Of a stretch of 64,000 nt of DNA, positions 4,116-5,947 are shown one piece after another. The position numbers and the translations under genes are program-made. Each line of letters starts with the position of its first letter. Position 1 is the stretch's first letter. The stretch covers positions 193,335 to 257,334 of the forward strand of contig OZ220480.1 of the NCBI GenBank assembly GCA_965116025.1, read 5' to 3'. This DNA comes from an uncultured candidatus Porisulfidus sp. (GTDB lineage: Bacteria > Pseudomonadota > Gammaproteobacteria > Poriferisulfidales > Poriferisulfidaceae). Below the pieces are notes generated by a model. That model did no database searches. It was not told where the DNA came from and worked only from the letters and a program-made list of their open reading frames with translations.

Positions 4116-5947
4116 TCAGTCGAACCAGTGCACGATCCCCAGCGCGAACATCTCGATCTCCGCCCCCGGCGTCCCCAGGCCGGTCCCCGAGATGCCCTGC
4201 CCGTAGGTCCCGTTGTCGTCGTTGTTGACTTCCGAATACGTCAGCCGCAACTCGGTTCCCGCCGGCATCGTGTAGAACACCCCGACGTTCCAGGCGTCCG
4301 CCGCCGTCTCGTCCCAGTCCCCCATGCAGTAGTTGCACGACAGCTCCAGGTCGTCGGCGTCCATATAGGAGAAGCGGAAGTCCAGCGGGCCGCCGAACTT
4401 GATCTTGCCCGACACCATCCAGGCGTCCCGCTCGATCTTCACGTTGGAGCTCATGGTTTGCTTCAGCTTGGCGTCGGCGTATTCCGTCATCTTCTTCTCG
4501 TACTCCATCACCTTCTCGTTGTGCGGCTCCAGGGCGTACTCCCTCGCCTTCGCCACGTATTCCTTGTAGAAGTCCATGTCCGTCTTGTCATCCAGATACT
4601 TCGTGGTCGATGTCTTCAACTTGTTCAGGATCGTGGTGCTCAGCTTGGTAGTCAGGGCCGCTTTGTACGCCGTGTTCAATCCCCCAGTGGTGAACCTGTA
4701 GTAGCGATCGATCGCTGGGATGTTCTGATAATTACTCCAACTTTGATTATCGAAGTATTTTTTATAGGACCCCCCGTATCACTAGGACTTAAGTCGGTGG
4801 GCCATACGGCCAGACCGGCCATGTTGGTCCTCCATTTCCCGTTCTCGTCCGTCAGCAGCTCGACCGCGAGCCCCCCGGTCATCTGCGCCTCTATCAGCGG
4901 CTTCAGCTCCGCTTCGGTGGGCATCGTCGGCTTCGTCGGCATGTCCATGTCGGCGGGGGCCATGACCTTCATGTCGTAGTAGGTTTTCTCGAAATGGTTG
5001 ATGTTGGGATCGGTACCGCCGTACCCGAACGCCTTCATGGCCTTGTTGATGTCGGTCACGCCGTGGAACTCGTACTCCAAAGTCTCCCACATGGCCGACA
5101 GTTGAACGCTCATGCCGTCGCCCAGGTCCATGATGTAGCGCCCGGCCAGGCGGAAGCTCTCCGCGTCCGAGCTCTCCATCTCCCCGACCGAGACCGCCGT
5201 CCAGTCCTCGTGGTCCTGCCAGGTCGCCGCCAGCCACAGCGGGCCGTTCGTGTACGCCAGGCTGCTCGAGCGGATCACCGGGTCGATCTTCCCGCCGCCG
5301 GTCGGCGCCATCGTCTCGTCGCGGTTCCCGGCCGTCCAGGCGAAGCGGAACACGAAGCCGTTCCAGTTCGGCGACCAGTACTGGATGATGTTCTCCTGGC
5401 GCCGGTTGAAGCCGGTGTCGTAGCCGGCCCCGGCGTAGTTGAACTCCGCCCCGGAGAAGCCGGTCGCCGGCCCCGACGCCGACGCCTGCTGGTCGAAGTC
5501 GCCGGTGTTGTAGAAGATGGTGTTGGCTCCGACCGAGCCCATGATGCTGGTGTGCGAGTCGGCTCCGGCGTCGTAGAACGGGTCCACCCACTGGGCCACG
5601 CCCTCGTTGTACGGCAGCAGCCAGGTGGCGAACATGATCTCGCCGGCCATCGGGTGCGCCAGCCCGATCTTGGAGTTGCGGTTGCACCAGCCGGTGCCGC
5701 CGGCGAAGTGGTTGTAGTAGGTGAACTGCTCGCACTGCAGGTTCACCTTTATGTCGCTCATGCCGGTGTCCACGCTGGCCGAGAAGCCGATGTTCCCGGC
5801 GTTCGACTGGATGCGGTCGAAGCTGCGCCCGCCGTCGATGTCCACGAACTCCCACGAGTGGTTCTGCCACCCGTACAGGTTGATCGTCTCCGCCCGCGCC
5901 GGCAGCGCCAGCGCCGAAAGCCCCGCCGCCAATAGCGCCAATGGCAT
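4116..5947 (-). pseudogene. porin paralog P2, interrupted by a single frameshift in a G6 tract (C6 on plus strand, 4770-4775)
   Basis: ORFs 4676-5947 (N-terminal 423 aa) and 4116-4679 (C-terminal 187 aa) are the two halves of a porin. The C-terminal frame stays open upstream to 4778 (YGGSYKKYFDNQSWSNYQNIPAIDRYYRFTTGGLNTAYKAALTTKL). Adding one G (G7) fuses both frames into a ~610-aa protein collinear with P4. Confidence 0.8.

What the first reader, a model, noticed from the sequence alone, without database searches (positions are those of the whole stretch)
4765..4781. P2 is split by a one-base frameshift inside a G6 homopolymer (possible phase-variable switch)
Seen: on the coding (minus) strand the sequence is GAT ACG GGG GGT CCT ATA AAA AAT..., which terminates at 4676. 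The other frame, TAC GGG GGG TCC TAT AAA AAA TAC TTC GAT..., runs uninterrupted into the conserved C-terminal module. Adding one G (G7) or removing two gives a single ~610-aa ORF whose new segment (RYYRFTTGGLNTAYKAALTTKLSTT) aligns with P4 (QYYRLNTIGTDQALRTLVTTKLSST). An A6 run follows immediately. Inference: this could be slipped-strand ON/OFF switching, a fresh inactivating mutation, or a homopolymer sequencing error.
Basis: partly seen in the sequence, partly recalled or inferred. Interest (0 to 1): 0.6.

Follow-up and report, generated by a model that had tools for sequence, protein, structure and literature searches.

The report
Frameshifted copy of a multi-copy porin
One of eight near-identical outer-membrane porin genes of a sponge-symbiont bacterium is broken by a single-base frameshift next to short G and A runs. 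It is most likely a fresh mutation or an assembly error in a probably silent spare copy, not an on/off switch.

Summary
The minus-strand porin gene P2 (5947-4116) reads from ATG 5947 to TGA 4678-4676. The -1 frame opens at 4778 and carries the rest of the protein, and one extra G restores a 610-aa porin. The shift can only be placed within 4778-4703. That interval holds a G6 (4775-4770) and an A6 (4763-4758). Codon usage favours the G6, but homology to P4 does not resolve the site.

A phase-variation switch is not supported. The runs are short. No other paralog has a run of 6 or more in its coding body, and only 1 of 30 relatives has a G6. Programmed frameshifting is also unsupported, because there is no stimulatory structure.

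Context changes the reading. The window holds eight Porin_4 paralogs in four convergent pairs, from Candidatus Porisulfidus, a sponge symbiont. Their N and C modules are about 96-100% identical in DNA. A roughly 200-aa hypervariable helical insert sits in extracellular loop L6. Only copy D has a Shine-Dalgarno sequence and a complete ATG/signal-peptide start. P2 has no Shine-Dalgarno sequence.

All five P2-specific substitutions are synonymous, so the lesion is recent or artefactual. My estimates are about 0.5 for a recent real mutation in a probably silent cassette, 0.3 for an assembly error, 0.08 for phase variation and 0.02 for programmed frameshifting.

The parts
4676..5947 (-). P2 upstream reading frame (423 aa): signal peptide MPLALLAAGLSALALPARA, N-terminal barrel module (strands 1-11), the first part of the hypervariable insert, then 34 out-of-frame codons ending at TGA 4678-4676
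   Evidence: Identical to database protein P0003, which is annotated separately in the source genome. Pfam Porin_4 E=8e-18.
4116..4778 (-). P2 downstream reading frame (-1 relative to the upstream frame; 220 aa): the rest of the hypervariable insert plus the C-terminal barrel module (strands 12-16)
   Evidence: A 187-aa piece is annotated as P0001.
4703..4778 (-). Interval that must contain the frameshift. It is bounded by the TGA at 4781-4779 in the downstream frame and by the YYR motif shared with P4.
4770..4775 (-). G6 run (C6 on the plus strand). It is the most likely site of the 1-nt loss. It lies in phase as G_GGG_GGT.
4758..4763 (-). A6 run (T6 on the plus strand). It is the alternative site of the indel. 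It lies in phase as the slippery heptamer A_AAA_AAT.
4446..5053 (-). P2 hypervariable region (extracellular loop L6 insert). Its core (about 4715-4830) has GC3 of 0.35-0.5, against 0.88 for the whole gene.
5948..6105 (-). P2 5' flank. It has no Shine-Dalgarno sequence before ATG 5947, an in-frame TGA seven codons upstream, and about 75 nt shared with the flank of start-less copy E (about 30 nt with C).
1746..3527 (+). Paralog A, the convergent partner of P2. It has the same signal-peptide variant, and GGGAG lies 11 nt before its ATG.
3528..4115 (.). Intergenic spacer of the A/P2 pair. It is homologous (85%) to the spacers of the other three pairs and has a terminator hairpin at each end.
27895..29817 (-). 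Paralog P4. It is intact, is the closest relative of the P2 variable region (53%), and has no homopolymer at the equivalent site.
25439..27268 (+). Paralog B, the convergent partner of P4. Its variable region is 99% identical to A's, but its N and C modules are of the other type.
44062..45948 (+). Paralog C. It is start-less, with a stop just upstream of the homology boundary.
46542..48449 (-). Paralog D. It is the only copy with AGGAG-N7-ATG AAA AAA and a full signal peptide, and the only candidate expression copy in this window.
   Evidence: structure model
48450..48565 (-). D upstream region: TTGACA-N14-TATAAT, a leader of about 95 nt, and an AGGAG Shine-Dalgarno sequence
   Evidence: read from the sequence; the consensus scan did not call it because of the 14-nt spacer
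51591..53486 (+). Paralog E. It is start-less and shares its 5' flank with P2.
54085..55998 (-). Paralog F. It is start-less. Its flank resembles D's, but the SD-ATG segment is replaced.

Best explanation
P2 is one of eight mosaic copies of a 16-stranded general porin in a Candidatus Porisulfidus sponge-symbiont genome.

The lesion. A single-base loss in the sequence coding for the giant, hypervariable extracellular loop L6 puts barrel strands 12-16 out of frame. The most likely event is G7 to G6 at 4775-4770. A7 to A6 at 4763-4758 is less likely. The product stops after 423 aa. It lacks the last five strands and the C-terminal assembly signal, so it cannot form a barrel.

Origin. I read this as a recent, genuine slippage mutation. 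It is tolerated because P2 is redundant and probably not an expressed gene. P2 has no Shine-Dalgarno sequence, and its 5' flank is of the type carried by start-less copies.

What it is not. It is not a dedicated switch.

Basis of each step.
- Shown: the split, the restored ORF, the family architecture, the absence of other decay, and the absence of comparable tracts in relatives.
- Inferred: the exact site, that the lesion is biological rather than technical, and that P2 is silent.
For: 1. Two frames, each homologous to intact paralogs, are joined by +1 nt.
2. The interval that must hold the shift contains two of the 27 runs of 6 or more in the 64-kb window. A random 77-nt window has a 2.8% chance of holding one and a 0.19% chance of holding two. 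Codon-usage likelihood peaks at the G6.
3. The lesion is recent. All five P2-unique substitutions in the conserved modules are synonymous, including two in the C module read in the downstream frame. The downstream frame still matches the paralog C modules 100% in protein.
4. The assembly looks sound. About 35 other genes tested in the window show full-length Pfam domain coverage. None of the other 25 runs of 6 or more breaks a recognised gene. This argues against a homopolymer-error-prone assembly.
5. P2 is redundant and probably silent. There are eight paralogs. Homology between copies starts abruptly at CCATTTCTAAT. Only D has SD+ATG. P2 has a TGA seven codons upstream and no SD, and shares its flank with start-less C and E. 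The same split between complete and start-less copies is seen in other Porisulfidus genomes.
6. The truncation is inactivating. In the AlphaFold model of D the variable region follows strand 11, and strands 12-16 come from the C module. The fold matches Omp32, PorB and OmpF.
Against: No reads, and no second genome carrying this cassette, could be found. A consensus error therefore cannot be excluded.

Genuine frameshifts are rare in this family. All 30 distinct full-length relatives are intact, so the prior for a real lesion is also low.

Related genomes come from PacBio HiFi/metaMDBG pipelines. There the residual errors are 'mostly homopolymers', and some libraries are PCR-amplified.

P2 does carry an in-frame ATG and a hydrophobic leader, which it shares with A. 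Its silence is inferred, not shown. Promoter scans were uninformative.
Confidence: 0.5

Rival explanations
1. Assembly or consensus error. The true sequence has G7 (or A7) and P2 is an intact 610-aa paralog. One base was lost in a short homopolymer during long-read consensus or polishing, or during PCR amplification of a low-input library.
For: The shift coincides with two adjacent homopolymers. One added base restores a perfect ORF with no other defect. All 30 relatives are intact. Sister genomes of this genus are HiFi + metaMDBG MAGs. In that pipeline the base sequence is taken from reads and then polished for 'mostly homopolymer' errors, and ultra-low-input PCR libraries are used for some sponges.
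Against: Runs of 6 are short for HiFi consensus errors (my knowledge). None of the other 25 runs of 6 or more in the window, including an in-frame G6 100 nt upstream in P2 itself (4876-4871), breaks a recognised gene. The only other split gene is a degraded IS5-like transposase, and its break is not at a run of 6 or more. The sequencing technology of the source genome is not known to me.
Confidence: 0.3
2. Phase-variable contingency locus. Slipped-strand mispairing at the G tract toggles P2 between OFF (G6) and ON (G7), giving the symbiont population a reversible surface variant.
For: The tract is in the coding region of a surface-exposed loop of an outer-membrane protein. +1 G restores the ORF. 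Homopolymer runs are otherwise depleted in this genome, with 13 G/C runs of 6 or more observed against 39 expected. No other decay is present.
Against: G6/G7 is at or below the usual threshold for appreciable slippage (my knowledge: G/C tracts of about 7-8 or more). The tract is not conserved in the closest paralog P4. No other paralog has a run of 6 or more in its coding body, and only 1 of 30 relatives has a G6. P2 lacks SD and promoter signals. The family already shows a different route to variation, namely mosaic cassettes.
Confidence: 0.08
3. The frameshift arose elsewhere in 4778-4703 by an imprecise recombination or indel event in the hypervariable core, for example an out-of-frame cassette junction. 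The homopolymers would then be bystanders.
For: The hypervariable core is where the paralogs differ by many indels. P4 differs from P2 there by gaps of 14, 9 and 2 nt, and the 25-nt total (1 mod 3) equals the missing phase. The alignment score to P4 is flat across the interval. The family is visibly mosaic.
Against: Codon-usage likelihood falls steadily if the upstream frame is extended past the G6 or A6. The frame-1 reading IIKVGVIIRTSQRS uses rare codons (ATA, AGA, GTA, GGA, CGA) and is atypically hydrophobic for a loop. The coincidence with two rare runs would go unexplained.
Confidence: 0.1
4. Programmed -1 ribosomal frameshifting. Ribosomes slip on A_AAA_AAT (or G_GGG_GGT) and produce full-length porin from the G6 template.
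For: Both runs form X_XXY_YYZ heptamers in the upstream frame. The required shift is -1. A G-rich Shine-Dalgarno-like stretch lies 6 nt upstream of the A heptamer.
Against: No significant downstream structure was found (z = -0.96). The only hairpin starts 0 nt after the heptamer and has three G-U pairs. The motif is not conserved in any paralog or relative. The 0-frame product would be a useless half-barrel. No cellular porin is known to use programmed frameshifting (my knowledge).
Confidence: 0.02

Closest known systems
Frameshifted paralog (fresh pseudogene) at a short mononucleotide run in host-associated bacteria
   Same: A single indel beside G6/A6 runs. The gene is redundant within a multi-copy family. 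The genome belongs to a symbiont and is rich in IS elements. There are no secondary lesions.
   Different: The copy sits in a family in which every other member examined, including start-less ones, is kept ORF-intact. Loss of frame is therefore unusual here.
Homopolymer-tract phase-variable outer-membrane genes (for example Neisseria porA/opc, Campylobacter poly-G loci, Helicobacter hop genes; from my knowledge)
   Same: A mononucleotide tract in the coding sequence of a surface-exposed outer-membrane protein. A change of one unit switches the frame.
   Different: The tract is only 6-7 nt. It is unique to one paralog and absent from relatives. No expression signals were seen upstream.
Anaplasma msp2/p44 expression site with 'functional pseudogene' donor cassettes. 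Also Borrelia hermsii vsp/vlp archives and Neisseria pilE/pilS (from my knowledge).
   Same: An outer-membrane beta-barrel protein with conserved N and C regions flanking a central, surface-exposed hypervariable region. There are many paralogs, most of them lacking a start. One complete copy was seen in each of three genomes. The copies are mosaic.
   Different: The protein family is different (Pfam Porin_4). The silent copies are almost full length, lacking only about 3 codons and the upstream signals. They are arranged as convergent pairs around a conserved spacer. The host is a sponge, not a vertebrate. No switching has been observed.
Inverted-repeat shufflons such as phase-variable hsdS loci (from my knowledge)
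   Same: An expressed copy and a start-less copy lie in inverted orientation and share long internal inverted repeats. These could exchange the variable part by inversion.
   Different: No site-specific recombinase gene lies in or beside the pairs. All four spacers have the same orientation, so no inversion polymorphism is visible.
dnaX-type programmed -1 frameshift (A_AAA_AAG plus an upstream SD-like element and a downstream hairpin; from my knowledge)
   Same: An in-phase A_AAA_AAT heptamer with a G-rich stretch upstream.
   Different: There is no stimulatory hairpin at 5-9 nt, no conservation, and no use for the short product.

Membership tests
Homopolymer-tract phase-variable (contingency) locus | Tract long enough for high-frequency slippage (commonly at least 7-8 G/C or at least 9 A/T) | tested here: not met
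   G6 and A6 only. The longest G/C run in the 64 kb is 7. The threshold is from my knowledge.
Homopolymer-tract phase-variable (contingency) locus | Tract conserved or recurrent in paralogs and orthologs | tested here: not met
   P4 has GCGGTG at that place. None of the 7 other paralogs has a run of 6 or more in its coding body. Only 1 of 30 relatives has a G6.
Homopolymer-tract phase-variable (contingency) locus | Tract-length heterogeneity within a population or between isolates | not testable with these tools
   No reads are available. No second copy of this cassette exists in any collection searched.
Homopolymer-tract phase-variable (contingency) locus | The ON state is an expressible gene (promoter, ribosome-binding site, start) | tested here: inconclusive
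   An ATG and a hydrophobic leader are present. There is no SD, a TGA lies 7 codons upstream, and the flank is shared with start-less copies. Promoter scans were uninformative.
Programmed -1 ribosomal frameshift site | Slippery heptamer X_XXY_YYZ in the 0 frame | tested here: met
   A_AAA_AAT and G_GGG_GGT are both in phase.
Programmed -1 ribosomal frameshift site | Stimulatory RNA structure 5-9 nt downstream | tested here: not met
   Fold z-score is -0.96. The hairpin starts at the last base of the heptamer.
Programmed -1 ribosomal frameshift site | Conservation of the site in homologues | tested here: not met
   Absent from P4 and from the 30 relatives, all of which are single ORFs.
Gram-negative 16-stranded general porin (Pfam Porin_4) | Profile match above the curated threshold | tested here: met
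   PF13609, 65.7 bits against a cutoff of 27, for the repaired P2.
Gram-negative 16-stranded general porin (Pfam Porin_4) | 16-strand beta-barrel fold | tested here: met
   Model of paralog D: pLDDT 81, 16 strands. Foldseek matches Omp32 at E=6e-18 with TM 0.79 normalised to the target. P2 as it stands encodes only strands 1-11 in one frame.
Expression-site / silent-cassette surface variation (msp2/p44, vsp/vlp, pilE/pilS type) | Paralogs with conserved flanks around a central hypervariable, surface-exposed segment | tested here: met
   N modules differ by 1-40 nt plus one 21-nt indel over about 900 nt. Variable regions are 25-99% identical in protein. The insert lies in extracellular loop L6.
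Expression-site / silent-cassette surface variation (msp2/p44, vsp/vlp, pilE/pilS type) | One or few copies with a promoter and start, the others lacking them | tested here: met
   Only D has SD+ATG+MKK. The database hits from OY764335.1 are 1 complete and 4 truncated. Those from OZ243950.1 are 1 complete and 3 truncated. This is by sequence only. A and P2 carry a substitute ATG.
Expression-site / silent-cassette surface variation (msp2/p44, vsp/vlp, pilE/pilS type) | Mosaicism showing exchange between copies | tested here: met
   A and B share a 99% identical variable region but have different N and C module types. B, D and F have N modules within 1-2 nt of each other but unrelated variable regions. 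P2 is a patchwork of A-, E- and P4-like segments.
Expression-site / silent-cassette surface variation (msp2/p44, vsp/vlp, pilE/pilS type) | Observed replacement of the expressed variable segment over time | not testable with these tools
   This needs time series, per-read haplotypes or transcript data.
Inversion shufflon (hsdS type) | Dedicated site-specific recombinase at the locus | tested here: not met
   No recombinase lies in or next to the pairs. An IS110 transposase sits between pairs 3 and 4 only.
Inversion shufflon (hsdS type) | Orientation polymorphism of the segment between inverted repeats | tested here: inconclusive
   All four spacers align in the same orientation. A single assembly cannot show minority orientations.

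The most novel reading that the evidence does not exclude
P2 is a now-defective archival cassette of a previously undescribed porin surface-variation system, conserved across Candidatus Porisulfidus sponge symbionts.

The system would have one expression-competent porin gene (here D, 48449-46542). It would also have several start-less but ORF-intact paralogs arranged as convergent pairs.

The copies would exchange the roughly 200-aa helical L6 surface domain by homologous recombination, either gene conversion or inversion. The roughly 0.9-kb N module and 0.33-kb C module would serve as homology arms.

The frameshift would then be a neutral lesion in a donor copy. If that copy were transferred whole, it would give a porin-null variant.
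Probability: 0.4. Interest if true: 0.75.

Novelty: new member of a known kind. Interest (0 to 1): 0.35.

Why it matters
The frameshift itself matters little. It is one broken copy among eight, and it is either an ordinary slippage mutation or a consensus error. It should not be entered as a phase-variation locus without read evidence.

The setting may matter more. A non-pathogenic sponge symbiont appears to keep a library of start-less, selection-maintained porin genes. They differ only in a large surface-exposed loop domain, and one complete expression copy was seen in each of three genomes.

If that library works like the antigenic-variation archives of Anaplasma, Borrelia or Neisseria, two things would follow. 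Programmed surface variation would extend to marine mutualists. The likely pressures would be phage, for which porins are common receptors, or recognition by sponge phagocytes. Defence genes and IS elements flank the pairs.

The idea is directly testable with the long reads that already exist for these sponge metagenomes.

Tried and rejected
1. Exact-sequence look-ups of the P2 fragments and of D for their contigs found nothing on record. The source record and its reads could not be reached.

2. A homology search with the P2 variable region returned only P2's own C fragment. tblastn of that region against 39 related loci gave no significant hit. No orthologous cassette exists to fix the ancestral run length. 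The word-indexed protein search is lossy: it missed P0003 and P0002. Absences in it were therefore not used as evidence.

3. A metagenome scan for the site allowing 5-8 nt runs gave one hit, L040. It is a subtilisin-like gene and a chance match.

4. I tried to locate the shift by homology to P4. The score was flat and unresolved.

5. RNA folding for a frameshift stimulator was not significant.

6. Consensus promoter scans were uninformative for both P2 and D.

7. BLAST of the pair spacer against other species found no conservation.

8. A PDB sequence-profile search gave no hit. A fold search was needed instead.

9. I considered a foreign insertion as the cause of the low GC at the shift. I rejected it because all eight paralogs show the same GC3 dip at the same position.

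10. I considered a diversity-generating retroelement. No reverse transcriptase was found among the ORFs scanned, and A and B differ by only two residues with no sign of adenine-directed mutagenesis.

11. The variable-region identity table was wrong for A, B, C and F, because the C module was included by mistake. One search replaces it. An apparent C-F similarity was dropped.

13. The 423-aa ORF at 4782-6053 on the minus strand is a shadow frame of the GC3-rich N module, not a gene.
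Full report
**1. The observation**

On the minus strand the window reads GAT ACG GGG GGT CCT ATA AAA AAT at 4780-4757. The G6 is at 4775-4770 and the A6 at 4763-4758. The ORF that starts at ATG 5947 ends at TGA 4678-4676 and is 423 aa.

The -1 frame is closed by TAG TGA at 4784-4779. It then runs open from 4778 to 4116. It encodes a C-terminal module that is 100% identical in protein to those of paralogs in the window. Adding one G gives a 610-aa ORF that matches Pfam Porin_4. 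The closest paralog, P4 (29817-27898, minus strand), aligns with P2 on both sides of the break. The split is real and is not a chance pattern.

**2. Where the shift is**

Any +1 or -2 change between 4778 and about 4703 restores the frame. I inserted a placeholder base at every position and aligned the result to P4. The score profile was flat (73-87) until the YYR motif at about 4702. P2 and P4 are essentially unalignable in this stretch.

A codon-usage log-likelihood, trained on the variable regions of the intact paralogs, peaks when the switch is placed in the G6. It scores 3.9 there, 1.2 at the A6, and below zero further downstream. The upstream frame beyond the runs reads IIKVGVIIRTSQRS with rare codons.

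Only 2.8% of 77-nt windows in this sequence contain a run of 6 or more, and 0.19% contain two. This interval contains two. A homopolymer slip is therefore the most likely origin, with the G6 the most likely site. 'Inside the G6' remains an inference.

**3. What P2 is**

The window contains eight copies of this porin in four convergent pairs:
- A 1746-3527(+) with P2 5947-4116(-)
- B 25439-27268(+) with P4 29817-27895(-)
- C 44062-45948(+) with D 48449-46542(-)
- E 51591-53486(+) with F 55998-54085(-)

The N module is about 900 nt, and the copies differ in it by 1-40 nt plus one 21-nt indel. The C module (330 nt) differs at a few sites. Nearly all these differences are synonymous. The central region of about 180-225 aa falls into three classes: A=B at 99%, P2-P4 at 53%, and C/D/E/F at 51-79%. 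Identity between classes is only 25-30%.

The roughly 600-nt spacers inside the pairs are homologous to one another and carry a terminator hairpin at each end.

An AlphaFold model of D (pLDDT 81) is a 16-strand barrel. Foldseek matches it to Omp32, PorB and OmpF. The variable region is a mostly helical insert after strand 11, which makes it extracellular loop L6. The smaller polymorphic patches also fall in external loops.

Related loci identify the family as belonging to Candidatus Porisulfidus and allied sponge-associated Gammaproteobacteria. Convergent pairs occur there too.

**4. Start-less copies**

Homology between copies begins abruptly at CCATTTCTAAT, which is codon 4. Only D has AGGAG-N7-ATG AAA AAA ahead of it. 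D also has perfect TTGACA and TATAAT hexamers about 100 nt upstream.

C, E and P2 have an in-frame TGA seven codons upstream and share a flank. F and P4 have no start. B has only a TTG with no Shine-Dalgarno sequence. A and P2 carry an Ile-to-Met change that creates an ATG, along with a more hydrophobic leader. A has GGGAG 11 nt upstream of that ATG. P2 has nothing comparable.

The same split appears in other genomes. Some loci have an ATG-bearing copy next to a copy whose start is replaced, often by a stop. Many database proteins of the family begin at an internal Met inside or after the signal peptide, for example MAAQAET…, MALAAAPFAAQAET… and MDIDGG…. Among the database hits, OY764335.1 has one complete and four truncated copies. 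OZ243950.1 has one complete and three truncated.

All 30 distinct full-length copies in related loci are nevertheless open from the N module to the C module. Substitutions between copies are overwhelmingly synonymous. The copies are mosaics of one another.

This is the design of an expression site plus archival cassettes. Whether exchange actually occurs, and whether by gene conversion or inversion, was not testable.

**5. What the frameshift means in that setting**

P2's conserved modules carry five substitutions found in no other copy, and all five are synonymous. Two lie in the C module and are synonymous in the downstream frame. There is no second lesion. The break is therefore very recent, or it is not real.

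About 35 other genes tested in the window have full-length domain matches. These include carAB, greA, the rimP-nusA-infB-truB genes, dapB, the dnaJ-dnaK-grpE genes, recN, bamE, argG and mlaA/C. None of the other 25 runs of 6 or more breaks a recognised gene. The assembly is therefore not generally prone to homopolymer errors. The only other split gene is a degraded IS5-like transposase, and its break is not at such a run.

On the other side, sister genomes were produced from PacBio HiFi reads with metaMDBG. Its authors state that residual contig errors are mostly homopolymers. Some sponge libraries are PCR-amplified. Real frameshifts are also rare in this family.

My estimates are about 0.5 for a genuine recent 1-nt loss, 0.3 for a consensus error, and 0.1 for an indel or recombination junction elsewhere in the interval.

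**6. The switch hypotheses**

Phase variation. The tract is 6-7 nt. It is absent from P4, which has GCGGTG there. No other paralog in the window has a run of 6 or more in its coding body. The only other run in a paralog is the A6 at codons 2-3 of D's start. Only 1 of 30 relatives has a G6, and none has a longer run. P2 shows no ribosome-binding site. I give phase variation 0.08.

Programmed -1 frameshifting. Both runs are in-phase slippery heptamers (G_GGG_GGT and A_AAA_AAT), and the needed shift is -1. However, the downstream RNA is no more structured than shuffled controls (z = -0.96). The only hairpin abuts the heptamer. The site is not conserved. The 0-frame product would be a barrel lacking strands 12-16. 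I give this 0.02.

**7. Comparison with known systems**

The lesion itself is an ordinary frameshifted paralog.

The family most resembles Anaplasma msp2/p44, an outer-membrane barrel with a central hypervariable region, one expression site and many start-less donors. It also resembles the Borrelia hermsii vsp/vlp archives and Neisseria pilE/pilS (all from my knowledge). It differs in four ways. The protein family is Porin_4. The silent copies are nearly full length. They sit in convergent pairs. The host is a sponge.

The inverted pairs also recall hsdS shufflons. However, no recombinase gene lies at the pairs, and no orientation polymorphism is visible.

Literature searches for this genus, and for porin cassette systems in sponge symbionts, found no description of the family.

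**8. Verdict**

The finding itself is of low to moderate interest. The surrounding cassette-like porin family is the more interesting lead, and existing long reads can test it.

Noticed in passing
window 1746-5947, 25439-29817, 44062-48449, 51591-55998: There are eight Porin_4 paralogs in four convergent pairs. Their N and C modules are about 96-100% identical in DNA, and the L6 insert of about 200 aa is hypervariable. Only D (48449-46542) has SD+ATG and a complete signal peptide. The other copies lack a start but are ORF-intact and under purifying selection. The same pattern occurs in other Ca. Porisulfidus genomes (L013, L015, L017, L022, L028, L029; proteins P0007-P0024).
   Followed up: partly
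window, codons about 365-425 of each paralog (in P2 about 4715-4830): Every paralog shows a sharp GC3 dip to 0.35-0.5, against 0.83-0.91 for the whole gene. The dip is at the same place, the hypervariable core of L6. The cause is unknown. Possibilities are fast diversifying turnover, mutation bias or import.
   Followed up: partly
window 3528-4115, 27269-27894, 45949-46541, 53487-54084: The spacers between convergent partners are homologous to each other (85%). They are mosaic and all lie in the same orientation. Each end carries the hairpin GAGCGGGCGCC-TTCG-GGCGCCCGCTTTCTT. The roughly 500-nt core has no Pfam-recognisable ORF and is not conserved in other species.
   Followed up: partly
window 48450-48565 (minus strand): Upstream of D lie perfect TTGACA and TATAAT hexamers, but with a 14-nt spacer. 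A leader of about 95 nt with a hairpin follows. A6 runs sit on both sides of the ATG (AAAAAATGAAAAAA).
   Followed up: no
window 6106-8014 (+): An AAA_21/OLD-like ATPase plus a DUF4276 protein lie immediately divergent from P2. They match the PADLOC candidate defence system HEC-01 (A: E=2e-154; B: E=1.5e-80).
   Followed up: partly
window 23331-25010 (-) and 31474-33033 (-): A NERD-UvrD-like helicase matches the DRT-associated 'RTasNERD-Hel' model (E=1.6e-55), with no reverse transcriptase seen nearby. A TraD/T4CP-like ATPase matches mads_8. Both flank the B/P4 pair.
   Followed up: no
window 30068-31309 (+), 49182-50357 (+), 59720-60812 (-): Three IS elements lie next to porin pairs: an IS4-like DDE transposase with DUF4372, an IS110-family transposase between pairs 3 and 4, and a degraded IS5-like transposase. 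The last is split over two frames (DUF772 and DDE_Tnp_1), and its break is not at a run of 6 or more.
   Followed up: partly
window 4782-6053 (-): A 423-aa 'ORF' lies in the alternative frame of the P2 N module. It ends at the TAG TGA just before the G6. It is a shadow frame of a GC3-rich gene, not a gene.
   Followed up: yes
L028 about 4800-6200 (minus strand; CBDASZ010000001.1): One family copy in a related genome has its N module spread over three frames. It is the only other visibly decayed or mis-assembled copy among about 40 examined.
   Followed up: no
window 4871-4876 (C6 on +): A second G6 lies in P2, 100 nt upstream of the first, and is in frame (ACC GGG GGG CTC). P4 has ACCCAAGGGCTT there. 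P2 is the only paralog with runs of 6 or more in its coding body.
   Followed up: yes
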